64,000 nucleotides of DNA, from positions 132,540 to 196,539 of the forward strand of contig CAWCLG010000006.1 in assembly GCA_963796335.1 (NCBI GenBank), read 5' to 3'. How positions within the stretch are numbered: the first letter of the stretch is position 1; every line of letters begins with the position of its first letter. The translations under genes and the position numbers were made by a program. The DNA is from an uncultured Gemmatimonadales bacterium (GTDB taxonomy: Bacteria; Gemmatimonadota; Gemmatimonadetes; Gemmatimonadales; GWC2-71-9). The notes beneath the pieces were generated by a model. The model did not search any database. It saw nothing but the letters and a program-made list of their open reading frames with translations, and had not been told where the DNA came from. Positions 42,053 through 56,241 of this stretch are shown one piece after another.

Positions 42053-42585
42053 GACCGCGGGTTCCCCGTGGCTTCACCCTGGTTGAAGTGTTGGTGGCGC
42101 TCGCCATCACCGCGCTGGTGACGCTGCTGGCCCATCAGCTCTTCGCCACGGTGGTCGACTCCGGCCACCGCGCCGTCGTGACCCGGCGGGCCCTCGATCG
42201 CGAGGCCAACGCGCGCCGTCTGCTCGGCGCGGCGTTTCTCTCCCTCGATGTCGGCAGCGACTCCACCGGCGGGTTCGTCGGGCGGCCGGACCGCGCGAGC
42301 TTCACCGCCTGGCTTCCGACGCCCGAGGGCTGGTCCGAGCTCCGGAAGGTCACCGTGGGATTCGAGGCCTCGGCGTGGGTGGCCCGGTGGGACGGCGAGC
42401 GAGTCCTGCTTGCGGACAGCGTCGAGGCGGTCGGGCTGGACTACCTGCTGGAGCCGGGCGTGCAGGCCGCCTGGGTGCAGGAGTGGATCTCGGCGGTCAG
42501 CGCCCCGCTGGCGGTTCGTGCCCGGGTGCGGCGGGCCGGCGGGCGGACCGACACGACGCTGTACCTGATCAAGGCCCGCGGATGA
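42049..42585 (+). CDS. minor pseudopilin (GspJ position)
   Basis: ATG 42049 overlaps the upstream stop (ATGA). PRG|FTLVEVLVALAITALV prepilin motif. Confidence 0.65.
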   Translation: MRPRVPRGFTLVEVLVALAITALVTLLAHQLFATVVDSGHRAVVTRRALDREANARRLLGAAFLSLDVGSDSTGGFVGRPDRASFTAWLPTPEGWSELRKVTVGFEASAWVARWDGERVLLADSVEAVGLDYLLEPGVQAAWVQEWISAVSAPLAVRARVRRAGGRTDTTLYLIKARG

Positions 42586-43430
42586 GACGGGGCGCCGCGC
42601 TGCTCACGGTCCTCTGGCTGGTGGTCGCATTGGCGGGAGCCGCCGGCGCGGCGCTCGCCGCCGTTCGCCTGGGAGCGAGCACCAGCCGGAACCGGGTGCT
42701 CCTCACCCGCGCCGACTGGGCGCGCGAAGCCTGCGCCGAGATCCTGCTGGGGCGGTACGCGGAGCAGAGGAAGGTGGGCGCCGTCTCCCGAACGGATCTC
42801 GGACGCGGTACCTGGTGCCGCCTCGAGATCGAAGACGCCGGCAACCGGCTCAATCTGGCGCATGCCACTCCGGAGATGATCAGGCTGCTGCTCCGCGACG
42901 ACAGCCTGTCCGATGCGCTGCTCGACTGGACCGATCTGGACGACGAGCCGCGGCCGTCGGGCGCCGAGGCGGAGTGGTATCGGAGCCGCTCGCGCCGGCC
43001 GCCCGGCAATCGGCCGCTGGCGGCGACGGCGGAGCTGGGCTACGTGCGCGGGTTCGACAGCTCGCGGGTGCGCGCGCTCGAGCGGCTGGTGACCACGCGC
43101 GGAGGGCCGACAGTCGACATCAACGTGGCGCCGCCCGAGGTGCTGGCGGTGCTGCCGGGCATGTCGCGGGAAGCCCTCGCCGACATCCTGGTCCAGCGAA
43201 GGCGCCGGATCGCATCGGCCGACGAGCTGCTCGCGCGGCTGGGACGCTCCGGCCGCGAGGGGCTCGTCGCCCGATATCAGGAGTTCACCGCGGTCGCGGG
43301 CTTCGGCGCCACTCGCTACGTGGTCCTGGCTGAGGGGGGCGTCGAGGGGACGCCGGTCACCAGCCGCGGCTGGCTCACGTTGGTTCCCGCCGACGGCCGG
43401 CTCGCGGTAGTCAGGCGCGAAGTCGAATGA
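42582..43430 (+). CDS. gspK: minor pseudopilin GspK
   Basis: ATGA overlap with the upstream stop. N-terminus MRRGAALLTVLWLVVAL lacks Glu+5, as is typical for GspK. NLNxA and helix-hairpin-helix-like region (INVAPPEVLAVLPGMS). Confidence 0.75.
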   Translation: MRRGAALLTVLWLVVALAGAAGAALAAVRLGASTSRNRVLLTRADWAREACAEILLGRYAEQRKVGAVSRTDLGRGTWCRLEIEDAGNRLNLAHATPEMIRLLLRDDSLSDALLDWTDLDDEPRPSGAEAEWYRSRSRRPPGNRPLAATAELGYVRGFDSSRVRALERLVTTRGGPTVDINVAPPEVLAVLPGMSREALADILVQRRRRIASADELLARLGRSGREGLVARYQEFTAVAGFGATRYVVLAEGGVEGTPVTSRGWLTLVPADGRLAVVRREVE

Positions 43431-44420
43431 GTCCGACGCTGCGGTTGACCGTGGGCGGCGGGCTCGCCCGGGCGGAGCTGCTGGGGCGGAAGGGCTGCCT
43501 CTGGGAAGCGGCGACGCCGTGCGAGACCCCGGCGGAGCTGCGCGAGGCCATCGGACACCTGGCCGGGGAGCCCGGCCTGCCGCGGCGGGGCGGACGCATG
43601 CGGGTGGTCGTGACGATGGGATCGCCCGTGGTTCAGGTGCGCTCGCTGCGAGGCCTTCCGCCGGTGCGGTCCTGCCGAGCTTCGAGCCCTGGTCGCGGCG
43701 CAGGCGGGCCGCTACTTCAGGCGCAACGGCAAACCGCTGGTGACCGATGCCGCCTGGCTCGGCAAAGGCGCCCGGCGCGAAGGTCACGCCACGGCCGTCG
43801 CGGTCGAGGAGCCGTGGATCGACGCCGTCCTCGACGGCGCGGCGGAAGCCGGACTCGAAGTCGGCGCCATCCATCCCGCGCTCGAGTCTGCGGGAAGCTC
43901 ACTGTCGCTGATCAGCGAGTCGGAGCGGGTGCGCCGGGATCGGCGGGGACGGCTGCTCGACCGGCGGCTGGCCGTGGCGGCTGCCGCCGTGTGGATCCTC
44001 TGCATCGGTGGCCTCTCGGCGCGGTTCGAACAACGGAGGAACACGGTCGAGGCGGAGATCGAGAAGCTGGCGGCCCCCTCGCAGGCCGTGGCCCGGGCTC
44101 GGCGGTCGCTGCACGATGCGTCCGCGACCGTCGCCGCGTTGGAGGAGGCGAGCCTCCAGCGCGGCGCGCTGCTGGATCGGATCGGGCGCATCGCGGCCGC
44201 GCTGCCCGACTCGGCCTACCTCGCGTCACTCACGGTGGACCTGGGGGGCAGCGGGTCGATGACGGGTGAGGCCCGCCATTCGTCCCAGGCGCTCGCTCGG
44301 CTGGAAGCGGAGGGCGCTGTCCTCGCACCCCGTCCCCTGGGTCCGGTCACCAGCGAGTCGGACGGCGGCCGGGTGTGGGAGCACTTCTCTATCGGCTTCG
44401 GCGCGGAGCCGGCGCGGTGA
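43427..44420 (+). pseudogene. GspL-like assembly protein (cytoplasmic PilM/GspL-like half, TM helix, PilN-like half); one frame break
   Basis: Frame 3 reads ..VVQVRSLRGLPPV. The continuation PAELRALVAAQAGRYFRRNGKPLVTDAAW... is in the next frame (break ~43660-43676). There is a single TM helix (LAVAAAAVWILCIGGL). Confidence 0.65.
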
Positions 44421-44983
44421 CGTCGCGCGACCGGCGTGCCGTCGTCTGGGGACTCGCGGTCGTGGCGCTCGCGGTGGTCTCGCTCCGGGTCGTGCCCTGG
44501 CTCGCCGGCCAGATCGAACGGAATCGTGAAGAGGCGATCTCCGACGTCGGCCGGCTGGCGAGAATGCGGGAGGAGATTGCCGGCGCGAAGGCGCTGGAGG
44601 ATTCCGCGGTCGCGGTGCGCGCCCGGATGGAGCTGCTCGCCGGAAGACTGCTCGTCGGGGACCGCGAGGCGGAGGCTCAGGCCGACCTGCGGTCGCGGGT
44701 CGAGGCCGCGATCTCCCGGAATCGGGTCCGGCTCCTGCGCATGGAGAGTCTGCCCGACTCGGCGGCCGCCGGATCGCTTCGAAGGGCCTCGGTCGGCGTC
44801 TCGATTCAGAGTGACAACAGCGGACTGCTGCGCTTCCTGGCGGCGCTGGCCGGCGATTCGGCGGCGGTCGTCGCCCGGCAGGCCAGCGTCATCGCGGCGA
44901 GCCCGCGGGCCGCGGCCGGACCGGAAGTCCTCGACGCCGAGGTGGTGGTGGGCGGCTGGTTCGCCGGGGGGAACGCGCCGTGA
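44417..44983 (+). CDS. GspM/PilO-like bitopic assembly protein
   Basis: GTG 44417 overlaps the upstream stop (GTGA). One N-terminal TM helix followed by a coiled-coil and ferredoxin-like periplasmic part. Confidence 0.55.
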   Translation: MTSRDRRAVVWGLAVVALAVVSLRVVPWLAGQIERNREEAISDVGRLARMREEIAGAKALEDSAVAVRARMELLAGRLLVGDREAEAQADLRSRVEAAISRNRVRLLRMESLPDSAAAGSLRRASVGVSIQSDNSGLLRFLAALAGDSAAVVARQASVIAASPRAAAGPEVLDAEVVVGGWFAGGNAP

Positions 44984-45441
44984 GGGCCGTCCTGCTGGTC
45001 GCGATCGCGGCGCCGCTGGCTGTGTCGGCCGTACTCCTGGCGGCACCCGTGATTCCCGATCCGGTGCTGCCGCCGCGTCGCGCCCTGCCTGCTCCTTCGA
45101 GACTTCCGGCCGAACCGACCGCCACGTCGCTGGAGCGCGGGCTCGCCCGGCCGCTGTTCCGTCGGACCCGCAAGCCGGCTCGACTCGCGTTCGATCCCGA
45201 CCGGGCGGCTGGGGAGGTCGCGATGGAGCCTTCGGCCCCGCGGCCCCAGCTCTCGCTGTCGGGAATCGTCTGGAGTCCCCGGCCGATCGCCGTGCTGGAG
45301 GGGCTGCCCAATATCACGGGCTCGACCGTGATGCGGACCGGGGATCGCACCGCGGGCGTGTGGGTGAAGCGGATCGGACGGGAGAGCGTCACGCTGGAAG
45401 GGTTCGACACCACCTGGGTGCTGAAGCTGAGGAATCCATGA
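44980..45441 (+). CDS. T2SS-associated bitopic protein (GspC/GspN/PilP position)
   Basis: GTGA overlap with the upstream stop. N-terminal TM helix, Pro-rich linker, and a small C-terminal beta domain (GVWVKRIGRESVTLEGFDTTWVLKL). Confidence 0.5.
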   Translation: MRAVLLVAIAAPLAVSAVLLAAPVIPDPVLPPRRALPAPSRLPAEPTATSLERGLARPLFRRTRKPARLAFDPDRAAGEVAMEPSAPRPQLSLSGIVWSPRPIAVLEGLPNITGSTVMRTGDRTAGVWVKRIGRESVTLEGFDTTWVLKLRNP

Positions 45442-46889
45442 ACCAGTACGGGAAGCTCGCGCTCGCGACCTGGCTGCTGGCCGGTCTGGCCCAGACCCCG
45501 GCGCGGGCCCAGGCGCCGGTGACGACCAATGGGGACAGCGTCCGGGTCCGATTCCTCGATACCGACCTCCGGGCGGTGATCCAGGCCGTCGGGAGTCACC
45601 TGCCCAAGCCGGTGATCGCGGGCGGGGTGCCCGAGGTCAAGGTCTCGCTGGAGACGCCGGAGCCGGTCAACCGCGAGACGCTCGCGACCCTGCTGGCGGG
45701 GCTGGTGAGGACCCACGGCCTCGAGTTCACCGAGGACTCCAGCTTCTTCCGCATCGGTCCCCCGAGTCCCGCCGCTGCTCCGGCGGCCGCGCAGCCGGCG
45801 GGCGGCGCCCAGGCGGCGAACGTGCGGCTCTTCGTGATCCGGCTCCGCCACGCACGCGCGTCGGACGTGGCCGCGACGGTGAACCTGCTGTTCGGCCGGG
45901 GAGGGGAGTTCACCGGGGCGACGGGGCTCTCGGGCGGTACGCTGGGGGACGAGCTGGCCCGGCCGGACATGCTGCCAGGCGGAGCGGTGCCGCAGCCGCC
46001 CGACTCGGGGAAGCCGCCCGGCGCCAACCTCACCGGCCCGGTCGCGATCGTGCCCGACCAGCTCACCAACTCGCTCCTGGTCCGCGCGGCCGAGGCCGAC
46101 TTCGCGGTGCTGCGCGAGGCGGTGACCCAGCTCGACATCCGTCCGCTCCAGGTGCTGATCGAGGTGCTGATCGTCGAGGCGAGGCACGACCGCCGGTTCT
46201 CCCTCGGCGCCGACCTGCTGGTGCCGCCGCAGGACATCGGCGACGGCACGATCGGGGGAACGATCACCGGCGGCGGGCTGGGCGACCTGGTGATCCGGCT
46301 GATGAACCTGGGCAAGGGCGACATTGACGCGGTGCTGCGGACGGCGCAATCGAAGGGCGACGTGGAGATCGTCTCGCGGCCGGTGCTGCTGGCGTCGAAC
46401 AACACCGAGGCCCGGTTCCTAGTGGGCTCGCAGCGGCCGTTCATCTCGGTGAGCCGCTCCCTCCCGACCGACAGTCCCTCGCGGGACCAGGTGGTGCAGT
46501 ATCTCGACGTGGGGACCAAGCTCAGGGTGCTGCCGACGATCAACCAGGACGGCTACGTCTCGCTGGTGGTGCAGCAGGAGATCAATGCCGCGACGGGAGA
46601 GACCCAGTTCGACGCGCCGGTGATCTCCACCCGGGAGGCATCGACCCAGGTGCTGGTGCGCGACGGACAGACGATCGTGATCGGCGGCTTGCGCGACCTG
46701 CAGCGGGACCGGAGCCAGTCGGGGGTGCCGGTGCTGTCGGGCATTCCGATCGTCGGCGGGCTGTTCGGGACCACCCGGCGGAGCAGCACGGCGACTGAGC
46801 TCTATCTGTTTCTGACGCCGCGGATCCTTCGCACCGACGAGGACGCCGCGAATGTGACCTCACCCCGGCTTCCGGATATCAAGCAATGA
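45438..46889 (+). CDS. gspD: secretin GspD
   Basis: ATGA overlap with the upstream stop. Signal peptide, N0/N1-like domains, and a secretin core (VLIEVLIVEA...VPVLSGIPIVGGLFG...ELYLFLTPRIL). Confidence 0.88.
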   Translation: MNQYGKLALATWLLAGLAQTPARAQAPVTTNGDSVRVRFLDTDLRAVIQAVGSHLPKPVIAGGVPEVKVSLETPEPVNRETLATLLAGLVRTHGLEFTEDSSFFRIGPPSPAAAPAAAQPAGGAQAANVRLFVIRLRHARASDVAATVNLLFGRGGEFTGATGLSGGTLGDELARPDMLPGGAVPQPPDSGKPPGANLTGPVAIVPDQLTNSLLVRAAEADFAVLREAVTQLDIRPLQVLIEVLIVEARHDRRFSLGADLLVPPQDIGDGTIGGTITGGGLGDLVIRLMNLGKGDIDAVLRTAQSKGDVEIVSRPVLLASNNTEARFLVGSQRPFISVSRSLPTDSPSRDQVVQYLDVGTKLRVLPTINQDGYVSLVVQQEINAATGETQFDAPVISTREASTQVLVRDGQTIVIGGLRDLQRDRSQSGVPVLSGIPIVGGLFGTTRRSSTATELYLFLTPRILRTDEDAANVTSPRLPDIKQ

Positions 46890-47845
46890 GCGCCGTCACC
46901 GAGGTACGCGCCACGGAAGTGATCGCGATTCCCCTGCTCATCGGATGCTCTCCCTCGATGCAGCTGGCCCGCAGCCGGGTGGAGCGGTTCGCCCGCAGCC
47001 GCCTTCCGATCCTGCTGGTGGGGCCGACCGGCACCGGGAAGGATCTGGTCGCCCGGCACCTGCACTGGGCCAGCGGCAGGGCGGGTGCGATGGTGGACGT
47101 GAACTGCGGCGCCCTCCCGCGCGACATGGTCGAGAGCCTGCTGTTTGGCCACCGGCGGGGAGCTTTCACCGGGGCCATCGAGAGCACCTTGGGGATGATC
47201 GCTCGGGCGGACCGGGGCACGCTTTTCCTGGACGAGTTGTCGAGCCTCCCGGTCGAAGGCCAGGCCAAGCTGCTGCGCGTGTTGGAGACGGGTGAGGTCT
47301 TGCCGCTGGGCGCGTCGACCAAGCAGGTGATCGACTTCCGGCTGGTCGCCGCCGCGCACGAGGACATCGCGGATCGCGTGGGCTCGGGGCTGTTCCGCCG
47401 GGATCTCTTTCACCGGGTGGCAGCGCTGCGGATCGACCTGCCGCCACTGGCCTCACGGCGAGAGGACATTGCCCTGCTCGCCCAGCACTTCGCATCGGCC
47501 CACGGGCGGATGATCGGGGAGGAGGGCATGGTGGTGCTGCGACAGGCGCACTGGCCCGGAAACGTACGCGAGCTGCGGGCGGTGGTGGATCGGGCGGTGC
47601 TGCTCTCCGACGCGCCCGTCCTCGACGCGCAGGTCCTGCTCGACGGCAGGGACCTCGGCCTCGCCGACGCGCTGCAGCGGGAGCCCGCGCGCGAGCTGCT
47701 GGAGCTGTGCCGGGTGCACGGGGGCCGCGCCGACACCATCGCCCAGGCACTGGGCGTCAGCCGGGCGACGCTATTCCGCCGACTCCGTGCGCTGGGGATC
47801 TCGCTGATGAGTCTCAGGGTCTCACGGAGTCTTGAGACTCGGTAA
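46886..47845 (+). CDS. receiver-less sigma54 enhancer-binding protein (AAA+ plus HTH), bEBP-2
   Basis: ATG 46886 overlaps the gspD stop (ATGA). Walker A GPTGTGKD, GAFTGA, LFLDEL, NVRELR, and the HTH IAQALGVSRATLFRRL; 319 aa with no sensory domain. Confidence 0.82.
   Translation: MSAVTEVRATEVIAIPLLIGCSPSMQLARSRVERFARSRLPILLVGPTGTGKDLVARHLHWASGRAGAMVDVNCGALPRDMVESLLFGHRRGAFTGAIESTLGMIARADRGTLFLDELSSLPVEGQAKLLRVLETGEVLPLGASTKQVIDFRLVAAAHEDIADRVGSGLFRRDLFHRVAALRIDLPPLASRREDIALLAQHFASAHGRMIGEEGMVVLRQAHWPGNVRELRAVVDRAVLLSDAPVLDAQVLLDGRDLGLADALQREPARELLELCRVHGGRADTIAQALGVSRATLFRRLRALGISLMSLRVSRSLETR
47809..47840. repeat. R1: 32 bp triple-GTCTCA element (copy 1), inside the 3' end of bEBP-2
   Basis: gagtctcagggtctcacggagtcttgagactc. 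27 of 32 positions are identical to R2, with identical 8 and 10 nt spacing of the three GTCT motifs. Confidence 0.85.
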
Positions 47846-47997
47846 GACCGTGGAGTTGCCGCGTTCAAGGATGGAGCCGTGGCAAACATCCGGGTGGAAA
47901 CCCATGCGCCTCGTGGCCTGCACGGTAACGTGCAGATCAAGAGGAAGGGTGGGGAGATCGTTAACAAGCATATCGATCCCTGAGCGTGGAGCCAGTT

Positions 47998-48363
47998 ATG
48001 CCTGAGTATACGATCAGCTTCGAGGTGAAAGAGGCTAACACCATCGAGCTGCCCAACCAACGGTACGCCGCGGGGCGATACCGCGTTGAGGCAGATGAGA
48101 AGGGTGGCGTGGATGTCTTCGGCAACCGAGAAGGCCTGCTTTATCTTGCCGAGGTCTTGGTGCGATGCGCACTAGGTGATCACAAGGCCGGATTCCACGT
48201 CCACATTCCCAGGAAGGGAGTGGTAAGCCTGGTGTATCTGGAGAACCCGAACTCACCGTCTACTCAGCCTCAACTGGTGTGGATGGCTAGCCTATCACAG
48301 AAGGCTTCGCTTGGGCGACCCAGGGGCGCTGCCTTCGGAACCGTGAGAGGGCGGCACTGGTGA
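47998..48363 (+). CDS. small cytoplasmic protein resembling polymorphic-toxin immunity proteins (Imm32-like by recollection, unverified)
   Basis: GGAG lies 6 nt before ATG 47998. The motif FGNREGLLYLAEVLVRCALGDHKAGFHVH fits this call. Sits in a low-GC context. Confidence 0.45.
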   Translation: MPEYTISFEVKEANTIELPNQRYAAGRYRVEADEKGGVDVFGNREGLLYLAEVLVRCALGDHKAGFHVHIPRKGVVSLVYLENPNSPSTQPQLVWMASLSQKASLGRPRGAAFGTVRGRHW

Positions 48364-48890
48364 GGAACGATCTGCGACAGCCAGAGCTTTCCTTGCGCCA
48401 AGGAGCTCTGCACCGCGTGAAGTACAAAAGTAGACTCTTCCGATTGCCAACAAGGGAGCCCGGCTAGCCGTGGCTGGGCTTTCTCACGCCCCGTTTGGTG
48501 TCCCCTGTGTGCGGAACAATCAGGGGCTGGAGTTGAGCCGACAGAAGGATGTGAGCGACCGATACGGAGAGACGCTGATCGCCCTTCTTGATCGCGAGTC
48601 GGTCTCCCTCTACGAGGGAACAAGCTTCACAGGAGAGGAGTCCCTGATCCACGCGAACGCGCTCTTCGCTTGGCTGACCAGCCCTCGATCTGGGAGCCTG
48701 CCGGACCTGCTGAACGTCACATCAGGGCAGCAGCAACCGGTTCAGGTGACCAAGAGTACAAGCGCAGCAAGGCCCCTTAAGTGAGGTGCTCGGTGGAGGG
48801 ACCGGCGAGACCAAGTCCCCCGTTCGACGTCGCGCGTGGAGGAGAGTGGTATTGACTTCTGGCTCCTGGTTCGACCCCTGAGGCGAAGGC

Positions 48891-49391
48891 ATGGGCAATG
48901 AGCCTGGACGGCCCATGGCAGACCGCTCGCCGCAGTCATTCGGCGGGCTCATTCGGGCCATTGGGATACTCGAAATCGTTGGCGGGGTTGCGGGGTGCGC
49001 CGCGGTCGCTTGGTTCTACGTGGGTGGCCATCAAGAGGCCATGCCAGGCGGCGATGTACAACTTGCGCTTCTGCCCTTTGGAACACTTACAACCGTCGGC
49101 TTCGCACTCCTGCGCGCACGCCAAGCGGGGCTTTGGGGTTCCCTTGTGCTGCAGCTCTCTCAAGCCCTGGCCTGGACGGCGGGAGAGACGATGTGGAGGT
49201 TCTCGGCTGGACCATTTCTATCTCTTACGCTTCTCAATGACACAACCTCGATCTTCGCTGGGTGGGACACGAGCTTCGGTTTTGGGCGCGTTCCCGAAAA
49301 CGCTCCTGGATCTGTTTCGTTGAATCTGATCCCGGTCTTTATTGCGTTAGCGCTGTGGCGACACCTGAGACGAGGCTTGCCGTCCTCGTAG
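48891..49391 (+). CDS. hypothetical four-TM membrane protein (possible orphan immunity protein)
   Basis: 166 aa ORF with four hydrophobic helices (LIRAIGILEIVGGVAGCAAVAWFYV, LALLPFGTLTTVGFALL, LWGSLVLQLSQALAW, LNLIPVFIALALW). Start uncertain (48891 or 48915). Confidence 0.4.
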   Translation: MGNEPGRPMADRSPQSFGGLIRAIGILEIVGGVAGCAAVAWFYVGGHQEAMPGGDVQLALLPFGTLTTVGFALLRARQAGLWGSLVLQLSQALAWTAGETMWRFSAGPFLSLTLLNDTTSIFAGWDTSFGFGRVPENAPGSVSLNLIPVFIALALWRHLRRGLPSS

Positions 49392-50007
49392 GCAAGACAC
49401 GTGTCACAGTGTAAGTAACTGAGTAGTCATAGGCCGGCCGACTATTTGGTGCGGTTATGAGGCCGAGATTGTAGGATAAACTTCTCCCCAAGAGACCGCC
49501 TCAAGGCTCGCATTCGCGGCACAATGCGATTTCTGGGGGCGAGCTTCTTCCGGAACGGCCATGTTTATTCGATGTGTTGTCTCGGAACGGGATAGTCGTT
49601 CTAACCAGCCTATGGGCATCTTCACGGCGCTCATAGGCTGGGGCGCGAAGGCAGGCTCGCACCCCATGAACTCGAATGGTTCCACAACACCGAACAGTGG
49701 TTCAACGAGCGATTGGAACGCCCGGATCAACTATCATGGTCGGGGCGGCCAGATGCACTGCCCCTCGCAATTACATGGCTAAGAATGTCGGCTGGCTAAC
49801 CTTCGATGTCGCTGAGGTCCGTAGGGCGTTGGCGGATGCCAAGATGCTCTCGTGGGGAGAGGTTATCCCGACATTCGGATCTAGGTCGCTGAGTTCGGGT
49901 GTGGATCGTTCCAATGGCCGTATGCCTTCGGAGTCGCCTTCATACCAGAGCATTGTATGGACGTGAGAACGTGGTCTTTCTGGATGTGGGGCGCAATAGC
50001 ACTGGTC

Positions 50008-50112
50008 TTTACTTCATCGTCTTGTGAGCAGTGAGCCGCCAGGGATCAATAGCCGTAGGCAGCTCGCCTCGGATGTCTTTGCGTTTCATCCTCGTCCCCC
50101 AATTCAGGGATC
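50008..50112. repeat. X1: about 100 bp direct repeat, copy upstream of the HExxH gene
   Basis: Aligns by eye with 50872-50967 at roughly three quarters identity (cttgtga.cagtg...taggc.gctcgc.tcggat...ttcatc.tcgtccc...ttcag.g.tctc). Confidence 0.6.
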
Positions 50113-50168
50113 TCCTTCTCGAATGAGCACGCGAGCCCTTAGAGCCGCCGCCTGCAAGAGGCCATAGA

Positions 50169-50807
50169 GTGGTTGTCAACCTATCCAAGGTGTCGTATTC
50201 GGTCGTGTCTTGGGTTCGGGTACCGCTGCGATGGGCACTGCTGAATACCCTATTCCTCTTGTCGTCCAAGACGGTGATTGGGGGCATCGAAGTCATCGAT
50301 GTGGCCGAAGTGGATGTCGATCAAACTCTGCGTCGGCTTCGCGAAGCGCTAGACGTCATAAGGCGGACCGACGTCCGTCGTTATGAGCGCATGAGACGAG
50401 ACCTGCGGCGCATTGTCCTCATGAAGGCGGGTGTGCCTCAATTTGCATCCGAGGTAGGCGCATGCCTCATCAGGAGTGCTTATGTACGGGAGAAATCTGC
50501 CGAGGCAGTAGCCACAACGTTGGTACACGAGGCTGTGCACGCCCGTATTCATCGCCGTGGCGTAGGATATGGGCCTGGCCTGCGCATTCGCGTGGAGGAA
50601 GTCTGTGTCAAGCAGCAGATCGACTTCGCAAGGGCCCTGGGGAACCCTGAGATACTCAGTCATCTGACACAGGTGCTGAAGGCGCCGCTATGGGTGCTAG
50701 CACTGCAACACGAGGACACCATCGCAGCCCTGCGGAGTTTAGGAGTGCCGGAATGGATGCTTCGCCTGTATGACAAAGTCGCCTTCGCCATGCGACGCCA
50801 TACCTAG
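50169..50807 (+). CDS. hypothetical HExxH-motif protein (putative zinc metallopeptidase fold)
   Basis: 212 aa ORF (GTG start) with TLVHEAVHARIHRRG. No signal peptide and no recognised family. Low GC. Confidence 0.45.
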   Translation: MVVNLSKVSYSVVSWVRVPLRWALLNTLFLLSSKTVIGGIEVIDVAEVDVDQTLRRLREALDVIRRTDVRRYERMRRDLRRIVLMKAGVPQFASEVGACLIRSAYVREKSAEAVATTLVHEAVHARIHRRGVGYGPGLRIRVEEVCVKQQIDFARALGNPEILSHLTQVLKAPLWVLALQHEDTIAALRSLGVPEWMLRLYDKVAFAMRRHT

Positions 50808-50871
50808 GCAGCGCTGACGGCCTTGGCGTCCTCACACAGGAGGGCCCCGGCGCGCAACATGCCCGTTCGTA

Positions 50872-50967
50872 GTTGCTTCGTATCTTGTGAACAGTGGCAG
50901 GATCCGCAGTCCTAGGCGGCTCGCTCGGATCCCTTTCTCTTCATCTTCGTCCCTGCTTCAGAGTCTC
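50872..50967. repeat. X2: about 100 bp direct repeat, copy downstream of the HExxH gene, abutting R2
   Basis: See X1. Its 3' end runs into the triple-GTCTCA element. Confidence 0.6.
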
Positions 50968-50992
50968 AAAGTCTCACGTAGTCTCAAGACTC
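50961..50992. promoter_or_regulatory. R2: 32 bp triple-GTCTCA element (copy 2), candidate UAS for the rhs promoter
   Basis: gagtctcaaagtctcacgtagtctcaagactc ends in the palindrome AGTCTcaAGACT. Centred about 97 bp upstream of the -24 GG. Confidence 0.45.
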
Positions 50993-51071
50993 CATGAGAC
51001 GGTCGCACGATCCGGTCATCCTCCCCGCCTCCAAAAACTGTTGAAACCAATGACTTAGGTGCCCAGCCCTG

Positions 51072-51088
51072 GCGGCATGGTCACTGCT
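51072..51088 (+). promoter_or_regulatory. candidate sigma54 (-24/-12) promoter for rhs
   Basis: gcGGCATGgtcaCTGCt has GG-N10-GC spacing and the same CGGCAYG-N4-CTGC form as the gspE candidate. The GC lies 35 nt upstream of the GTG 51122 start proposed here. Confidence 0.45.
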
Positions 51089-51121
51089 CTCCCCTTCAGC
51101 ATCCCCGCTCCGGAGAGCCAT

Positions 51122-54100
51122 GTGTTCCGCACCGCCCACCGCTGCGCTGCCGCGCGGCTTCTGTTCGTCGCCCTCGCCACGCTCCTGCTCACGTCCGGTC
51201 CCGCTGCTGCGCAGTTCAGCACTCAGGCCCTAGGCGGCCTCGAGATTACTCCGGACTCGTCCACAATGATCGTGGCCCCGAATACGAACGGTCACCAGAT
51301 CGAGTTCCTCGCGCGCAATGAGCTGCTGACCACAGGAACCTGGTCATTCAGCTGCGTCGCGACGGGCAACGTGAGCTGTGTCTCCTTCCCCTCCGGGGCT
51401 ACCTACCCTTCGGGTGGAGGCGGTGAGCTGCTCGTCACCTTCAACGCGACGGCTGGTGGCACCGGCCGCATCACGTTGACGGCCTCCCCGGGAGGAGAAA
51501 CCGGCTCGGTCATCGTCGACATCGCCGAGCCGGGTGCGCCGGCCGTCACGCTGCAGAACCACAACCGGGACAACGTCGACCGTTCGATGTGCCTGACCGC
51601 GGGGGCCGGTGACGGTGCCGCGTGGAGCTGTGGCGACCTGGTGATCACTCACGCGATGCCGACCTACACCACGATGAACAAGGGACGGAACCTCACGCTG
51701 ATCCACAATTCGGCGACGACGCATCCGATGCCGCCGATCGCCGCGGTCATCAATCAGACCGGGCGCACGATCATGCAGGGCATCAGGGCGCAGGTATGGG
51801 TGGGCGCCACGCCGGTCCTACTTCGCTCAGTGGTGTATGACCCGTGGTCCACCGGGGTCGGCAGCTCCAGGCAAGTGGTGGTCGACTTCAATGCGGACAC
51901 GTTCTCGACCGGCGCCTATCCCATGGAGTTTCGAGTCGAGAACGTGTACCCAACGCTGCCGCCCTTTATCACGACGGTGAAGGACACCTTGCTGATCGTC
52001 AATCGAACCCGCAGCGAACTGGGGGCGGGTTTCGGAATCGCCGGCGTGGAGCAACTCTTCCTCAATCAGCCGGTGGGCACCGCACTGGGCCATCTGATGT
52101 GGGTCGGCGGGGACGGGTCGGCCAAGCTCTACCGGAAACTCAACGCCACGACATGGGTCGGGCCACTGGGCGGGTTCCAGGATACCATCTCGTTTGCATC
52201 CTCGAAGTACACCCGCACCATGAAGGGTGGTACCAAGGTCGAGTTCGATGCTACCGGCCGCCACACCGCGACCATCAACCGTGCTGGACAGACCACCACC
52301 TTCACCTGGACATCGACCCCGTCGGGTCCGCGCCTGACCGGCATAGCCGTGCCGCCGACGACGCAGGGCGGATCGTACACACTGGTCTATGAGACCACAG
52401 GCAGCCGCCTGCTCGATCTGATCCGCGACCCCGCGAACCGCACCCTGAACCTCACGATGGCGGATGGTCGCCCTACGATACTGATCGATCCTGACAATCT
52501 TCAAACCGAGTTCGGGTGGGACGTCACCAACCGGCGGATCACCTCACGCAAGAATCGGAAGGGTTGGACTACTCGCTACGAGTACTCCAAGGGCCTCGCC
52601 TGGGGCAGCAGAGTGACGAAGGTGACTGCCCCGATCGGCCGTACCGTCGATACAGAAACGGCTGCCACCGTGTTCGAGCCCTGGAACGACAAGGGGCTGG
52701 GTATTGCACCAACCAACCAGGATGCCGTCGTCGTTGCTCAGGTGGAGACTCGCATCCTCGGCCCGCGAGCGGGCGTCAACGACAATGCGGATTTCCTGGT
52801 CAACAAATGGGGTGCGCCCACCAGGGCAGAGAATGCGATCGGGGCGGTGACCACGTACGCCCGTTCCAGCGCCTCATTCCCGGCCTTGATCACGAGGATC
52901 ACCCATCCGAACGGCAGGATCACCGATCAGACCTACAACAACCGGGGCAACCTCACCAAGGTCAGGGACGATGTGAACCCGATCACGGGTGATCCCCAGA
53001 CTCGGGTGACGGTGTACGAATATCCTAGCTCCGGTCTCAACCGCGACTACCCCACCGCCGTCTGGGACTCACTCGCCTCGCCGACCAGGACCGAGTACGT
53101 CTACAACTCCATGGGCTTGCCCGACACCGTGCGCTCACCCGGCGGGCACCGCACCGGGTTCACCTACAAGACCAGCGGCGCGCTGAAGGGGCTGATGATC
53201 CGCAGCACGGAGGTCAGCGTCGAAACCTGGGAGGAAACCGCCACGGCGCAGGATACCGACTTCCAGTGGCGGAACCACGAGCGGCGCTTCGACTACGATG
53301 CCAAGGGCAACCTGCAGGCCGACACGTCAGCCGTCGGTGCCGTGACGTCGTTCAGTCGCGACGCCATGGGGCGGGTGACCAACGTTTACGACCCGCTCAA
53401 GACCAGGATCGAGCGGGTCTACGACCCGATGGATCGCGTGACCCAGACGAAGCACTATACCACGACGACGGCACATCCGATCGTCACCAACCCCCTGGCG
53501 GGCTGTATCGCCAATCAGGCGGTCTGCTCCGACAATACGGTGGCATGGGATCCACTGCCGAACCCGGTGAACACGACCTACAATCATGGAGCCATGAATC
53601 TCGAGTCGGTTCTGGATCCCCGATCGGTGCCCCGCACCTACGTGTACGACACGCGGGGACTCGTGATCGAGGAGAAGGACGATTACAACAAGTCCCGCCT
53701 GGCCTTCTATAACGAGGCCGGTCTGATCACGTCCTCCCGGTCCCGCACCAACCGTGAGGTCCGCTTCTACTACGACGCCGCAGGCCGGCGGACCGCCATG
53801 GCCTATGGCGCGGTGCCGAGTCCGGTGCCGGGTTCGGGGGCAAGCGTTCCGGGCGACAGCATCCGGTACACGTACGACAACATGGACAATCTGCTGACTG
53901 TCACGAACCGAGAGGGAACTATAACTCGCACGTACATGCGAAACGGGCTGGTCAAGCAGAAGACCATGAATTTTGTCGGCACGATTCCAAATGACGTCGT
54001 CACCTATGTGTACGATCGTGACGGCGTACTTCGGACTGCGACCCGCGGCTCGGACGTCGTGACATACAACTATCAGGCGGCGACCAGGAACCTCAGCACC

Positions 54101-55774
54101 ATGGTTGTCCAGCTAGGTGCCCCGGCCAGCATCACTCGGACCTTTACGTTCGACTGGGACTCGCTCGGCCGGACCCGCCGGATCACTTATCCCACCAACG
54201 CGTCCCACCCTCTGACCGTGGACTACCGGTACGACAGGGCGGGAATTCTCCGGCGCCTGGTGTCCAAGCAGACCGGTGCCGCCAGTACCATTCTGAACTT
54301 CACCTATCGCAACGTCGCGGTAGATCCCATCGGACGCATCATCCGCGACAGCCTGACCTGCTCGCCGAGCTCGGCTCCCGGTCCGTGCGAGGGCACGACC
54401 CCGATCCGGGTGGCGAACTCATACAGCCGGATGGGAGCCCTGCTGAGACAGGAGTATCGGCGCGGAGGGAGCCGGCAGGTCGATTCGATGAGCTATGACG
54501 CGTCGGGAAACATGAAGTTTCGGGTCCAGGAGGATCTTGGGCACATCCACACGTTCACGCTGGATGCCGGCGCGCACAACCGGCTGGCCAGCTTCGTACG
54601 CTCGGAGCTCGGCAATACCTCCCGTGCAATCACGTACAACCTTGATGGCGCTCGTCTGCGCGAAGTACGGGACCCTTGGAACGAAAACGTCCCCGAGGAG
54701 CGATACTACCACTATGATGGCCTCGGGCGCATGAGCGGCACGGGTGAATACCTCTTGGTCGGTAGCTCGTGGCAGTTCTCGGATCGGGAGACCGCATGCC
54801 AGTACGATGGCGACGGGCAAATGATCGGGCCGTGTGATAACGGGTCCCATTTCCTGCTGTTTGACGGGGACAATACGACTGGCACCACTGATGCCAATTC
54901 GCATGGCTGGCGGTTCTTCCACGCCCCAGGAATCGATTCACCGCTGCTGGGATACCTCCGCGGACCCAGCAACCGCCTCTACCTGTGGGTGACCGACGGC
55001 AGGGGCCGAGAGTTTGCTGTGGCGGACACGCTAGGGCGGCGGAATTCGTCGGAGGACGGGATTAGCCAGCTAGGTGACTGGCGATATGCTGGTGGCACAA
55101 AGGCCTCGAACAGCTTTGATGCTGACCGCTTCGGTTCGCCTCAGGCGCCGAAGCTGTCGTTCTTCCGGAACCGAGCGTATGATCAGGAGACCGGGCGGTG
55201 GACCCAGGAAGACCCGATAGGATTGGCTGGTGGGGTCAATCTCTATCAGTTCAATGGGAACGATCCAGCCTCTTATACCGATCCTTTCGGGCTATGTGTT
55301 CCTTGGTGCACGGCGTTGATCGGTGCAGCGGTCGGTGGGGGTGGCGCAGCAATCGCAACGCTGGCCTACAACGCGATGAACGACCGTCCGTTGGGCGAGA
55401 ACGTGGGACGCAATGCTCTCGTCGGCGGGGCTGCCGGTGGAGCCATCGGGCTCGGAGTTGGACTCTTCAGCGGAGCGGGAGCCGCTGTGGCGACTGGTGC
55501 GGCTCCGGTGGTAGGCAAGGGTACTGAACGTCTGATAGGCATGCTCGAGCAAGCCGGTCCCTCGATGGATGCAAGAATCAGGGCGGTTAGTGAGTATCTA
55601 CCGGCCGGCCAGAAAGCGGTGATGACCGCTCTTGAAGGTGGCTCCCGAATGCTGTCGGGGGGAGCAGGCTCCCGAGCTACTCAGGTAATCCTTAACGGCG
55701 ATGGAAGTACAATCGTGAAGAAGTTCAATACGGCAAAGGAAGCCTTTGAGGTGGTTAAGGAGATTAGGCCGTGA
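51122..55774 (+). CDS. Rhs/YD-repeat polymorphic toxin with Sec-type signal peptide and unrecognised C-terminal domain
   Basis: Many YD repeats (YxYDxxGxL) and a core ending in DPIGLAGGVNLYQFNGNDPASYTDPFGL. Start set at GTG 51122 (SD GGAGAG 5 nt upstream), giving the signal peptide FRTAHRCAAARLLFVALATLLLTSGPAAA|Q. The longest ORF starts at 51059. Confidence 0.88.
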   Translation: MFRTAHRCAAARLLFVALATLLLTSGPAAAQFSTQALGGLEITPDSSTMIVAPNTNGHQIEFLARNELLTTGTWSFSCVATGNVSCVSFPSGATYPSGGGGELLVTFNATAGGTGRITLTASPGGETGSVIVDIAEPGAPAVTLQNHNRDNVDRSMCLTAGAGDGAAWSCGDLVITHAMPTYTTMNKGRNLTLIHNSATTHPMPPIAAVINQTGRTIMQGIRAQVWVGATPVLLRSVVYDPWSTGVGSSRQVVVDFNADTFSTGAYPMEFRVENVYPTLPPFITTVKDTLLIVNRTRSELGAGFGIAGVEQLFLNQPVGTALGHLMWVGGDGSAKLYRKLNATTWVGPLGGFQDTISFASSKYTRTMKGGTKVEFDATGRHTATINRAGQTTTFTWTSTPSGPRLTGIAVPPTTQGGSYTLVYETTGSRLLDLIRDPANRTLNLTMADGRPTILIDPDNLQTEFGWDVTNRRITSRKNRKGWTTRYEYSKGLAWGSRVTKVTAPIGRTVDTETAATVFEPWNDKGLGIAPTNQDAVVVAQVETRILGPRAGVNDNADFLVNKWGAPTRAENAIGAVTTYARSSASFPALITRITHPNGRITDQTYNNRGNLTKVRDDVNPITGDPQTRVTVYEYPSSGLNRDYPTAVWDSLASPTRTEYVYNSMGLPDTVRSPGGHRTGFTYKTSGALKGLMIRSTEVSVETWEETATAQDTDFQWRNHERRFDYDAKGNLQADTSAVGAVTSFSRDAMGRVTNVYDPLKTRIERVYDPMDRVTQTKHYTTTTAHPIVTNPLAGCIANQAVCSDNTVAWDPLPNPVNTTYNHGAMNLESVLDPRSVPRTYVYDTRGLVIEEKDDYNKSRLAFYNEAGLITSSRSRTNREVRFYYDAAGRRTAMAYGAVPSPVPGSGASVPGDSIRYTYDNMDNLLTVTNREGTITRTYMRNGLVKQKTMNFVGTIPNDVVTYVYDRDGVLRTATRGSDVVTYNYQAATRNLSTMVVQLGAPASITRTFTFDWDSLGRTRRITYPTNASHPLTVDYRYDRAGILRRLVSKQTGAASTILNFTYRNVAVDPIGRIIRDSLTCSPSSAPGPCEGTTPIRVANSYSRMGALLRQEYRRGGSRQVDSMSYDASGNMKFRVQEDLGHIHTFTLDAGAHNRLASFVRSELGNTSRAITYNLDGARLREVRDPWNENVPEERYYHYDGLGRMSGTGEYLLVGSSWQFSDRETACQYDGDGQMIGPCDNGSHFLLFDGDNTTGTTDANSHGWRFFHAPGIDSPLLGYLRGPSNRLYLWVTDGRGREFAVADTLGRRNSSEDGISQLGDWRYAGGTKASNSFDADRFGSPQAPKLSFFRNRAYDQETGRWTQEDPIGLAGGVNLYQFNGNDPASYTDPFGLCVPWCTALIGAAVGGGGAAIATLAYNAMNDRPLGENVGRNALVGGAAGGAIGLGVGLFSGAGAAVATGAAPVVGKGTERLIGMLEQAGPSMDARIRAVSEYLPAGQKAVMTALEGGSRMLSGGAGSRATQVILNGDGSTIVKKFNTAKEAFEVVKEIRP

Positions 55775-56127
55775 CCAAGCATGCAGGGCACTCGCACGAG
55801 CGTGCCAGAGCCATCTGGAGATTCGCGGAGTCGGAAGAGGATGGCGAGACGTGGCTTCGTAATCCAGCCTTGTTACAAGGCTACGTTGATTACGAATCTC
55901 GTAGTGATGATGGTAATAGAATCTGGCGAAGAATTATGGTGGTGACCAAAGGCTGGCTGGAAAGCCAAGTTCAAAGCGTGCGCAAGGGAACTACTTCCCC
56001 TCTTTGGATTGCACTGCCGGCCTTGGTTGTCCTACCGGACGCGACTGGAGAAGAACTAAAAGCTGCGGTAGACGCGGTAATCGGACAGGGCGGCCTGGAC
56101 CCCTACTCGACGGCCCTATCCACTTAA
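55771..56127 (+). CDS. candidate cognate immunity protein
   Basis: GTG 55771 overlaps the rhs stop (GTGA), with AAGGAG 7 nt upstream. 118 aa. This is the lowest-GC stretch of the locus. Call is based on position only. Confidence 0.5.
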   Translation: MTKHAGHSHERARAIWRFAESEEDGETWLRNPALLQGYVDYESRSDDGNRIWRRIMVVTKGWLESQVQSVRKGTTSPLWIALPALVVLPDATGEELKAAVDAVIGQGGLDPYSTALST

Positions 56128-56241
56128 AGCAGTCGCTGAAGACCTTTGGCTAGCATCACATGGGCAGAAGCAGGGTTGAAGTCCCAGGTCCGCAACCCTC
56201 TCTGCCCTGGAGCCTCCGGCCCCCCGCGGTATTTTACTCGC

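What the first reader, a model, noticed from the sequence alone, without database searches (positions are those of the whole stretch)
51122..56127. Sec-signal Rhs toxin without T6SS hallmarks; glycine-zipper-rich, histidine-free C-terminal domain plus a coupled small ORF
The Rhs core ends at the canonical DPxGL (..DPASYTDPFGL, about 55280-55294). The remaining ~159 residues comprise two parts:
- A Gly/Ala-rich hydrophobic part with repeated GxxxG-type motifs (LIGAAVGGGGAAIATLAY...LVGGAAGGAIGLGVGLFSGAGAAVATGAA).
- An ~85-aa soluble tail with no His and no nuclease- or deaminase-like motif that I recognise.

GC drops at the core/tip boundary and stays low through the overlapping (GTGA) 118-aa ORF, which is the classic signature of a swapped toxin/immunity tip. 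The hydrophobic part could be a membrane-inserting (pore or ionophore) toxin or a PT-TG-like pre-toxin module. There is no PAAR, VgrG, Hcp or DUF4150 nearby. Instead there is a cleavable signal peptide and a T2SS-like operon.
Basis: partly seen in the sequence, partly recalled or inferred. Interest (0 to 1): 0.7.

Follow-up and report, generated by a model that had tools for sequence, protein, structure and literature searches.

The report
Sec-exported Rhs toxin, new tip family
A soil-type Gemmatimonadales bacterium carries a signal-peptide Rhs toxin whose tip joins a reusable glycine-rich membrane hairpin to a small, unclassified toxin domain with its own immunity gene; it is a real but fairly ordinary new member of the polymorphic-toxin world.

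Summary
51122-55774 encodes a 1550-aa Rhs protein with a Sec-type signal peptide, RHS repeats and a canonical DPIGL-(18)-DPFGL end. A 159-aa His-free tip follows, then a GTGA-overlapping 118-aa ORF. No T6SS gene was found in the window, and a T2SS-like operon lies upstream.

The tip is two separable modules:
- The Cys-x-Pro-Trp-Cys plus glycine-zipper hairpin (55295-55501) recurs in other Rhs proteins in front of at least six unrelated C-terminal domains, each followed by a different downstream gene.
- The last ~88 aa (55502-55771) form a distinct family. About 40 representatives exist, always at the extreme C-terminus of Rhs proteins. They sit behind different linkers and are always followed by a homologue of the 118-aa ORF (six distinct loci).

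Neither the tail nor the small ORF matches Pfam, NCBIfam or PDB sequences. Both give confident AlphaFold models with no Foldseek relative. The tail is basic. The small protein is acidic, soluble and lacks a signal peptide.

Best reading: the hairpin is a pre-toxin membrane-entry helper, the tail is a cytoplasm-acting toxin of unknown chemistry, and the ORF is its immunity protein. A pure pore-former is less likely.

It is a new member of a known kind. One side lead: sigma-54-type promoters and adjacent activators link rhs and the T2SS-like operon.

The parts
51073..51088 (+). Sigma-54-type -24/-12 promoter-like element (CGGCATGGTCACTGCT), ending 34 nt before the rhs ATG.
   Evidence: The same motif class sits at the same distance upstream of the Rhs genes of L001 and L011. 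The stricter motif occurs at 0.041 per kb per strand.
51122..55774 (+). rhs gene: 1550 aa plus the stop codon.
   Evidence: RHS_repeat 5e-22, YD_repeat_2x 6e-17 and Rhs_assc_core 1e-13. GGAG Shine-Dalgarno at 51113-51116.
51122..51211 (+). Predicted Sec signal peptide: 30 aa, with cleavage after AAA.
   Evidence: Read directly from the sequence. The hydrophobic core LLFVALATLLL has an 11-residue Kyte-Doolittle average of 2.97. The full-length relatives P0015, P0019, P0022 and P0028 also start with signal-like peptides. SignalP was not run.
55211..55294 (+). Rhs-associated core end, DPIGL-(18)-DPFGL, which is the aspartyl autoprotease and cleavage motif.
   Evidence: TIGR03696 matches residues 1345-1391. 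The motif definition follows PMC9637101.
55295..55501 (+). Pre-toxin hairpin module: CVPWC followed by two Gly/Ala-rich helices joined by the loop YNAMNDRPLGENVGRN.
   Evidence: Conserved at 57-77% identity in P0003, P0004, P0005 and P0015, in front of different tails. KD19 peaks at 1.55, and there are 7 GxxxG motifs.
55502..55771 (+). C-terminal toxin-candidate domain of about 88-90 aa (APVVG...EIRP), fold alpha2-beta5.
   Evidence: Exhaustive profile search: 53 representatives at E<=1e-3 and 33 at E<=1e-10, about 40 of them true family members and those always at the extreme C-terminus. AlphaFold pLDDT 87 and pTM 0.79. No Pfam, PDB-sequence or Foldseek relative.
55771..56127 (+). Cognate immunity-candidate gene: 118 aa, GTGA overlap with rhs, AAGGAG Shine-Dalgarno at 55759-55764.
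   Evidence: Homologues at 40-71% identity directly follow the tail in L002, L003, L011, L012-15 and L016/17. The family has 40 clusters. AlphaFold pLDDT 89.5. It is acidic and has no TM segment.
46886..47845 (+). Sigma-54 activator (AAA+ plus HTH, no receiver domain) between the secretin and the rhs island. It is a candidate regulator of rhs.
   Evidence: Sigma54_activat 3e-54. Homologues lie next to Rhs or hairpin loci in L001, L011, L012, L020 and L021.
38276..46889 (+). T2SS-like operon (GspE, GspF, pseudopilin, GspK, secretin) with its own -24/-12-like element at 38276-38291. It is a possible but unproven export route.
   Evidence: gspF appears frameshifted near 40770-40785.
47900..56130 (.). 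Low-GC island (about 59-62% GC against about 70% for the genome) that holds the rhs cassette.

Best explanation
This is a T6SS-independent, Sec-exported Rhs polymorphic toxin of a Gemmatimonadales bacterium.

Inferred from family knowledge: the Rhs shell encloses the C-terminal 159 aa and cuts them free at DPFGL.

Shown by comparison: that cargo has two independent modules.
1. A Cys-x-Pro-Trp-Cys plus glycine-zipper helical hairpin. It is reused in front of many unrelated toxin domains.
2. An unclassified, basic alpha2-beta5 domain of about 88 aa. It is inherited together with the downstream acidic, soluble protein of about 105-120 aa.

Inferred mechanism:
- The marginally hydrophobic hairpin inserts into the target cell's inner membrane and helps carry the small tail across. 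In this it resembles the glycine-zipper N-terminus of Tde1 or the TMDs of prePAAR effectors.
- The tail is the growth-inhibiting activity and acts in the cytoplasm.
- The small ORF is its cytoplasmic immunity protein.

The tail's chemistry is unknown. My low-confidence guess is a phosphate-containing substrate, RNA or a nucleotide. This rests on three things: its size, its basic charge against an acidic immunity protein, and an invariant Arg plus GGxG loop.

How the 165-kDa protein crosses the producer's outer membrane is not known. The adjacent T2SS-like operon, which also carries a sigma-54-type promoter, is the leading candidate.
For: Rhs identity and the cleavage motif.

Modularity:
- P0003, P0004 and P0005 share only the hairpin. 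P0001 and P0002 share only the tail.
- The tail lies behind at least three linker types. These are the CxPWC hairpin, a CPNCRNELSSRY linker with one helix, and CPTC- or CVPINVC-type linkers.
- The hairpin lies in front of at least six other tails.

Immunity tracks the tail:
- BLAST E-values are 1e-27 to 1e-46 among the ORFs that follow tails.
- ORFs that follow hairpins with other tails show no similarity to the window's. They are a 96-aa helical protein, 284-288-aa LRR proteins, 127-aa and 184-aa proteins, and a multi-TM 135-aa protein.

Tail family:
- 33 representatives at E<=1e-10, always at the extreme C-terminus. The long members are RHS_repeat proteins.
- The model is a compact globular domain with pLDDT 87.
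- Median pI is 9.7 for the tail and 5.0 for the immunity protein. The immunity protein has no TM segment or signal peptide.

Other support:
- The immunity gene is translationally coupled, with AAGGAG and a GTGA overlap. The same 4-nt overlap occurs in L016 and L017.
- GC3 falls in steps towards the tail and immunity gene.
- A Sec-type N-terminus is present here and in the four full-length relatives, and none has PAAR.
- Precedent for glycine-zipper-mediated translocation: Tde1 (PMC10240207).
Against: - No toxicity, binding or membrane assay exists for any member.
- The tail has no recognisable catalytic motif and no structural relative, so calling it a toxin rests on position and on the linked gene only.
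- The window's tail has Thr where 96% of the aligned members have Arg. L016/17 share this, so this sub-lineage could be attenuated.
- Every tail is preceded by some hydrophobic Gly/Ala-rich segment. The tail may therefore need a membrane anchor to act, which blurs the line between helper and toxin.
- A hydrophobic hairpin in a Sec substrate could act as a stop-transfer signal in the producer. Its low hydrophobicity (KD19 <= 1.55) may prevent this, but that is untested.
- The export route is unknown, and gspF looks frameshifted in this window.
Confidence: 0.6

Rival explanations
1. The whole 159-aa tip is a membrane-depolarising, pore- or ionophore-type toxin. The glycine-zipper helices form the channel and the tail regulates or anchors it. 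The soluble ORF keeps it inactive, as ExiAB does for EsxX.
For: - The tip has two Gly/Ala-rich helices with 7 GxxxG motifs.
- There is no His and no catalytic motif, and the tail has no enzyme-like relative.
- Every tail family member is preceded by a hydrophobic segment.
- Precedents: the Rhs toxin Tse5 carries a pore-forming CT (PMC9637101), and a soluble immunity pair neutralises the glycine-zipper toxin EsxX (PMC12744356).
- L022 shows that a hairpin-type start can lead into a long hydrophobic CT with a multi-TM downstream protein.
Against: - The immunity family co-varies with the tail and not with the hairpin.
- In EsxX the soluble immunity protein binds the zipper itself.
- The hairpin is exchangeable for unrelated linkers and also precedes at least six other tails with unrelated downstream genes.
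- Immunity to known pore-formers such as Tse5 and the CDI ionophores is membrane-embedded. This one has a maximum KD19 of 1.14.
- The Tox-WTIP motif is absent (motif from PMC3482391).
Confidence: 0.2
2. The cassette is a decaying or inactive copy. The tail has lost activity, and the locus is a horizontally acquired remnant with no current role.
For: - The window's tail has Thr at a position that is Arg in 96% of the aligned members.
- The locus lies in a low-GC island with poorly coding small ORFs upstream.
- gspF nearby looks frameshifted.
Against: - The 4.65-kb rhs ORF is intact, with a signal peptide, a Shine-Dalgarno and a promoter-like element.
- The same Thr occurs in L016/17 with an intact coupled immunity gene, so it is a lineage variant rather than a one-off lesion.
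- All six invariant tail residues (G19, R25, G53, G54, G56, G68) are present in the window's copy.
Confidence: 0.1
3. It is a T6SS cargo after all, loaded through an adaptor encoded elsewhere in the genome.
For: Most characterised Gram-negative Rhs toxins are T6SS effectors. Only 64 kb of the genome is visible.
Against: - It has a Sec-type signal peptide and no PAAR, prePAAR or VgrG-binding N-terminus.
- The four full-length relatives have signal peptides, and Ig-like or discoidin domains in two of them.
- No T6SS gene appears in the window or in the fetched flanks of related loci.
Confidence: 0.05

Closest known systems
Signal-peptide ('T2SS-class') RHS polymorphic toxins of Zhang et al. 2012 (PMC3482391). 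The best-studied Sec-dependent example is WapA/WapI of Bacillus subtilis (from my own knowledge).
   Same: An N-terminal Sec signal, RHS repeats, a DPxGL end, a variable C-terminal toxin and a small cytoplasmic immunity gene directly downstream.
   Different: The host is a diderm, Gemmatimonadales, so a second membrane must be crossed by an unknown route. The toxin and immunity domains belong to none of the catalogued Tox, Ntox or Imm families.
Tse5/Tsi5 of Pseudomonas aeruginosa, an Rhs protein with a pore-forming C-terminal toxin (PMC9637101).
   Same: An Rhs shell, the DPxGL-(18)-DPxGL motif, a CT of about 150 aa with predicted hydrophobic helices, and no enzymatic motif.
   Different: Tse5 is PAAR-like and VgrG-dependent, and its immunity protein Tsi5 is an integral membrane protein with two TM segments. 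Here there is a Sec signal, a soluble acidic immunity protein, and a globular tail that carries the immunity specificity.
The glycine-zipper N-terminal region of the Agrobacterium T6SS DNase Tde1 (PMC10240207).
   Same: Repeated GxxxG helices placed in front of a separate toxin domain. They are proposed to permeabilise the target's inner membrane so that the toxin reaches the cytoplasm. The immunity protein acts on the toxin domain and not on the zipper.
   Different: No sequence relationship was tested or is evident. Tde1's zipper also binds its adaptor Tap1. Here the module sits inside an Rhs cargo, starts with a conserved Cys pair, and occurs in Sec-dependent proteins.
EsxX with ExiAB and ExiCD of Staphylococcus aureus (PMC12744356).
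   Same: A glycine-zipper-bearing C-terminal toxin region together with a soluble cytoplasmic protective protein.
   Different: ExiB binds the zipper itself, and a second, membrane-bound immunity pair exists. Here the soluble protein follows the non-zipper tail, and no membrane protein is linked to it.
Pre-toxin domains PT-TG, PT-HINT and PT-VENN, and the pore-former Tox-WTIP (PMC3482391).
   Same: The position between the delivery module and the toxin, and reuse with many toxins (the PT domains). Two membrane-spanning helices at RHS C-termini (Tox-WTIP).
   Different: No Pfam match to any of them at E<=1. The RxxR and Wx[ST]IP motifs are absent.

Membership tests
Rhs/YD-repeat polymorphic toxin | RHS/YD repeats that form the shell. 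| tested here: met
   PF05593 at 5e-22 in 5 stretches, and TIGR01643 at 6e-17.
Rhs/YD-repeat polymorphic toxin | An Rhs-associated core that ends in DPxGL-(18)-DPxGL. | tested here: met
   TIGR03696 at 1e-13. DPIGL starts at 55211 and DPFGL at 55280.
Rhs/YD-repeat polymorphic toxin | A variable C-terminal domain with a linked downstream immunity gene that is exchanged as a unit. | tested here: met
   The tail plus small ORF are conserved as a pair in six loci, behind different cores and linkers. GC3 falls in steps. Toxicity and protection themselves are not testable here.
T6SS-delivered Rhs effector | An N-terminal PAAR, prePAAR or VgrG-interacting domain. | tested here: not met
   No PAAR or DUF4150 hit at E<=1. 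The N-terminus is a signal peptide.
T6SS-delivered Rhs effector | Neighbouring vgrG, hcp, eagR or tss genes. | tested here: not met
   None among the 40 ORFs scanned in the window. The rest of the genome is not visible.
Signal-peptide ('T2SS-class') polymorphic toxin | An N-terminal Sec signal peptide. | tested here: met
   An n/h/c layout with AAA|Q, shared by P0015, P0019, P0022 and P0028. This is a rule-based reading; no SignalP was run.
Signal-peptide ('T2SS-class') polymorphic toxin | Actual export through a T2SS secretin. | not testable with these tools
   Only association is available. T2SS genes, sigma-54 activators or both lie next to Rhs or hairpin loci in the window, L001 and L021. 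gspF looks frameshifted here.
Pore-forming Rhs/CDI toxins (Tse5, Tox-WTIP, CDI ionophores) | A membrane-embedded cognate immunity protein. | tested here: not met
   The 118-aa protein has a maximum KD19 of 1.14 and pI 5.6, and folds as a globular alpha/beta model.
Pore-forming Rhs/CDI toxins (Tse5, Tox-WTIP, CDI ionophores) | A toxin domain made of membrane-spanning helices, and the family motifs (for example Wx[ST]IP). | tested here: inconclusive
   Two marginally hydrophobic helices are present, but they make up only 70 of 159 aa. There is no Tox-WTIP hit or motif.
PT-TG pre-toxin domain | A match to the PT-TG profile. | tested here: not met
   No Pfam family at E<=1 for the tip.
Glycine-zipper translocation modules (Tde1-like) | Consecutive GxxxG helices upstream of a separate toxin domain, with immunity directed at the toxin domain. 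| tested here: met
   7 GxxxG motifs. Immunity tracks the tail. This is a functional resemblance; homology was not tested.
Glycine-zipper translocation modules (Tde1-like) | Zipper-dependent membrane permeabilisation and cytoplasmic entry. | not testable with these tools
   This needs ONPG or PI uptake assays and delivery assays.
BECR / small metal-independent RNase toxins | A recognisable BECR, barnase or colicin-like fold, or a profile match. | tested here: not met
   Best Foldseek PDB hit E=0.27 with no RNase among the top 50 hits, and best BFVD hit E=0.024. No Pfam or PDB-sequence hit for 25 members.

The most novel reading that the evidence does not exclude
Gemmatimonadales, and perhaps Acidobacteriota and Chloroflexota, may run a T6SS-independent Rhs delivery pathway with three parts:
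- Sec-exported Rhs cocoons are expressed from sigma-54 promoters under dedicated activators.
- They leave the cell through the adjacent, similarly promoted T2SS-like machine.
- Their cargo enters target cells with a conserved Cys-pair plus glycine-zipper hairpin that serves as a universal self-translocation device for many toxin domains.

The ~88-aa tail would then be a toxin with a new fold and a new activity.
Probability: 0.2. Interest if true: 0.75.

Novelty: new member of a known kind. Interest (0 to 1): 0.4.

Why it matters
- The locus adds an unclassified toxin/immunity pair to the Rhs repertoire: about 40 toxin representatives and 40 immunity clusters, almost all from metagenomes.
- It shows that a glycine-zipper hairpin carrying a conserved Cys pair is a reusable module between the Rhs cleavage site and many different toxins. 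That makes the hairpin a concrete candidate for the poorly understood step in which Rhs cargo crosses the target's inner membrane.
- It gives a testable lead on how Sec-dependent Rhs proteins are regulated and exported in diderm phyla that have not been studied for bacterial antagonism. The lead is sigma-54 control plus a neighbouring T2SS-like operon.

Tried and rejected
Searches that found nothing:
- Pfam and NCBIfam on the tip and the small ORF.
- Pfam on all 25 tail members at E<=1; only scattered single hits appeared.
- PDB sequence search with single sequences and with the profile; nothing below E=0.07.
- Foldseek of the tail model against PDB and BFVD, and of the immunity model against PDB; no hit at E<=0.001 and TM-scores mostly below 0.5. 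7zhm_C from the Salmonella Rhs1 TreTu/TriTu complex appeared at rank 42 (E=1.3, TMq 0.53). I treat that as noise.

Searches that failed or were too narrow:
- A profile search of the big protein database with the hairpin alone returned nothing, probably because low-complexity Gly/Ala candidates swamped it.
- The diverse tail alignment was too variable for locus finding.
- The genome and metagenome scans found few loci, so distribution figures are lower bounds.
- The secretin scan found only one close relative, on a short contig.

Ideas rejected:
- PT-TG membership: no hit.
- Tox-WTIP: the motif is absent.
- An EsxX-type mechanism in which soluble immunity sequesters the zipper: here immunity follows the tail.
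- GTG 51059 as the rhs start: the promoter-like element lies inside that extension, and ATG 51122 has a Shine-Dalgarno.
- P0029, P0040 and P0044-P0057 as family members: they are multi-stretch, low-complexity matches inside long repeat proteins.
Full report
**What is there**

The long ORF at 51059/51122-55774 (+) translates to an Rhs protein.
- Family hits are Pfam RHS_repeat at 5e-22, TIGR01643 at 6e-17 and TIGR03696 Rhs_assc_core at 1e-13, the last on residues 1345-1391.
- DPIGL starts at 55211 and DPFGL at 55280. This is the DPxGL-(18)-DPxGL aspartyl-protease motif that marks the end of Rhs cores (motif as described in PMC9637101).
- ATG 51122 is the likely start. A GGAG sits 5 nt upstream, and the longer GTG form would contain a promoter-like element.
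- The N-terminus MFRTAHRCAAARLLFVALATLLLTSGPAAA|Q has the classic layout of a Sec signal peptide. This was read by rule; SignalP was not available.
- The 159 aa after DPFGL contain no His. Their first 70 aa are half Gly+Ala, with 7 GxxxG motifs (p=0.035 against shuffles). They form two segments whose 19-residue Kyte-Doolittle average (KD19) peaks at only 1.55.
- A 118-aa ORF at 55771-56127 overlaps the rhs stop by GTGA and has an AAGGAG Shine-Dalgarno 6 nt upstream.

**Context**

- The genome has about 70% GC, while 48.0-56.1 kb is an island of about 60% GC.
- Third-position GC (GC3) falls in steps: 0.79-0.82 in the core, 0.72 from about 54480, 0.61-0.64 in the hairpin, 0.57 in the tail and 0.55 in the small ORF. 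Neighbouring genes are at 0.88-0.93.
- Upstream lies a T2SS-like operon (GspE, GspF, pseudopilin, GspK, secretin) bracketed by two sigma-54 activators. Downstream is a UvrD-type helicase.
- None of the 40 larger ORFs scanned in the window is a T6SS component.
- MutS is 72-78% identical to those of Gemmatimonadales MAGs. All close relatives of the tip come from Gemmatimonadota MAGs.

**The tip is modular**

A first database search split the tip cleanly. P0003, P0004 and P0005 share only the segment LCxPWCTA...GLGxGL (57-77% identity) and then continue into unrelated C-terminal domains. P0001 and P0002 share only the last ~90 aa, at 61-63% identity.

An exhaustive profile search with the tail found 53 representatives at E<=1e-3 and 33 at E<=1e-10.
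- True members carry the domain at the extreme C-terminus.
- The long members (742-1843 aa) are RHS_repeat proteins.
- About a dozen weak multi-stretch hits are low-complexity noise.

Between DPxGL and the tail, members carry different linkers:
- the CxPWC two-helix hairpin (window, P0015, P0006, P0021, P0030);
- a CPNCRNELSSRY...LTPxDR linker with one hydrophobic helix (L002, P0013, P0041);
- CPTC- or CVPINVC-type hairpins (P0022, L016, L011, P0042).

Conversely, the CxPWC hairpin precedes at least six other tails in genome and metagenome contigs. A recognisable CxPWCTAL(I/A)GAA start also follows the Rhs core in a Thermoflexales MAG and a Terriglobales MAG.

**The small ORF follows the tail**

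Homologues of the 118-aa ORF (40-71% identity) lie immediately downstream of the tail in L002, L003, L011, L012-15 and L016/17. With the window, that makes six distinct loci.
- BLAST E-values among them are 1e-23 to 1e-46.
- The ORFs that follow hairpins with other tails show no similarity to the window's. They are a 96-aa helical protein, 284-288-aa LRR proteins, 127-aa and 184-aa proteins, and a multi-TM 135-aa protein.
- The immunity-like family has 40 clusters of 95-123 aa, all unnamed and without a Pfam domain.
- It is strongly conserved, with invariant W16, F18, D24, G25, W28, T59, W62 and L96.

**What the two proteins look like**

- Tail: AlphaFold gives pLDDT 87 and pTM 0.79, with two helices followed by five strands.
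- Immunity protein: pLDDT 89.5, a mixed alpha/beta fold.
- Neither has a Foldseek match at E<=0.001 in PDB, nor does the tail in BFVD. Neither matches Pfam, NCBIfam or PDB sequences.
- The tail is basic (median pI 9.7). Its invariant residues are G19, R25, G53, G54, G56 and G68, and one further position is Arg in 96% of the aligned members. The window and L016/17 carry Thr there.
- The immunity protein is acidic (median pI 5.0) and has no TM segment or signal peptide.

**Interpretation**

The specificity-determining unit is the tail plus the small ORF. The hairpin is a shared accessory. A soluble cytoplasmic immunity protein for a Sec-exported toxin makes sense if the toxin domain acts in the cytoplasm of sibling cells.

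The hairpin's position, its reuse and its marginal hydrophobicity fit a membrane-entry helper. The Tde1 glycine zipper, whose immunity protein likewise does not neutralise the zipper, is a functional precedent (PMC10240207).

The pore-former alternative is weakened on three counts:
- Known pore-former immunity proteins are membrane proteins: Tsi5 and the CDI ionophore CdiI proteins.
- The soluble EsxX immunity protein binds the zipper itself.
- Here immunity does not follow the zipper.

The alternative is not excluded, because every tail is preceded by some hydrophobic segment and the tail has no recognisable active site. I put the helper-plus-cytoplasmic-toxin reading at 0.6 and the pore reading at 0.2.

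The tail's chemistry is a guess. A phosphate-containing substrate is suggested by its size, its charge complementarity with the immunity protein, and the Arg and GGxG features.

**Secretion and regulation (a side lead)**

All four full-length relatives start with signal-like peptides, and none has PAAR. Two carry Ig-like or discoidin domains. Zhang et al. 2012 already list many RHS toxins under a signal-peptide class, so this feature is not new in itself.

What is suggestive is the neighbourhood.
- A strict -24/-12 motif, GGC[AG][CT]G-N4-[CT]TGC, occurs only three times in the window. One copy ends 34 nt before the rhs ATG, one ends 36 nt before the GspE ATG at 38327, and the third is at 59019.
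- The only hit in L001, and one of three in L011, lie at the same distance upstream of their Rhs genes. The background rate is 0.041 per kb per strand.
- GTCTCA/TGAGAC repeats lie 70-110 nt upstream of the rhs element in the window, and similar repeats lie upstream of the L001 element.
- Activators of the same AAA+-HTH type lie next to Rhs or hairpin loci in L001, L011, L012, L020 and L021. A secretin (57-59% identity) lies next to L001's Rhs island, and a GspE (58% identity) next to L021's.

This may be shared ancestry rather than function, and gspF in the window looks frameshifted near 40770-40785. Export through the T2SS-like machine therefore remains a hypothesis.

**Verdict**

This is a new toxin/immunity family on a known kind of system, a Sec-class Rhs polymorphic toxin. 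It carries a reusable glycine-zipper pre-toxin module and shows a possible sigma-54/T2SS link that deserves a bench test.

Noticed in passing
window 51073-51088 (+) and 38276-38291 (+); L001 about 6870-6857 (-); L011 4314-4327 (+): Sigma-54-type -24/-12 elements end 34-36 nt before the rhs ATG and the GspE ATG (38327). The same motif sits at a similar position upstream of the Rhs genes in two other Gemmatimonadota loci, about 34 nt before the inferred ATG in L011 and roughly 30-35 nt before the start in L001. The strict motif occurs only three times in the 64-kb window.
   Followed up: partly
window 50963-51000; L001 about 6990-6930 (- strand): Three GTCTCA copies and an inverted TGAGAC lie 70-110 nt upstream of the rhs -24/-12 element. 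Similar GTCTCA...TGAGAC...GAGAC repeats lie upstream of the L001 element. They could be an activator binding site.
   Followed up: no
window 37826-37900 and 38003-38140: A long tandem array of the octamer GTCCGCCT (about 17 copies) faces an inverted array (AGGCGGAC/AGGCGGGC). The two arrays flank a palindromic core of about 100 nt, in the gap between the first sigma-54 activator and GspE.
   Followed up: no
window 40252-41446 (+): gspF seems split by a +1 frameshift near 40770-40785. The first T2SSF domain is in one frame and the second in another, and the GC3 signal switches frame at the same place. This is either a pseudogene or an assembly indel, and it bears on whether the T2SS works.
   Followed up: partly
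window 47986-48363 (+), 48891-49391 (+), 50169-50807 (+): The low-GC island upstream of rhs holds three ORFs of note. One has a weak Imm32 match (1.5e-5, below the Pfam cutoff) and may be an orphan immunity gene. One is a 166-aa multi-TM ORF. One is a 212-aa ORF with an HEAVH (HExxH-like) motif and no family hit.
   Followed up: no
window 55295-55309; P0003-P0042: A Cys directly after DPxGL, with a second Cys within 1-9 residues, is present in 17 of 22 relatives whatever the linker type (CVPWC, CPWC, CPEC, CPTC, CPNC). In a periplasm-folded Rhs this could be a disulfide or a metal site at the new N-terminus of the released cargo.
   Followed up: partly
window about 55679-55681 (tail residue 60): The window's tail reads SRATQ where 96% of the aligned members read xRARQ. 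The same Thr occurs in the closest relative (L016/L017, GCA_030157185.1), so it is a sub-lineage trait.
   Followed up: partly
window 44436-45455 (+): The listed secretin ORF is 817 aa, but homologues align only from about residue 341. The first kilobase or so of the ORF probably belongs to other, unrecognised T2SS genes, or is non-coding read-through in this high-GC DNA.
   Followed up: no
L012 8866-16071; L021 4765-8238: Related contigs carry arrays of orphan Rhs-CT fragments and small immunity-type ORFs (DUF6984, DUF7674) next to integrases and a sigma-54 activator. This is typical of orphan toxin/immunity arrays.
   Followed up: no
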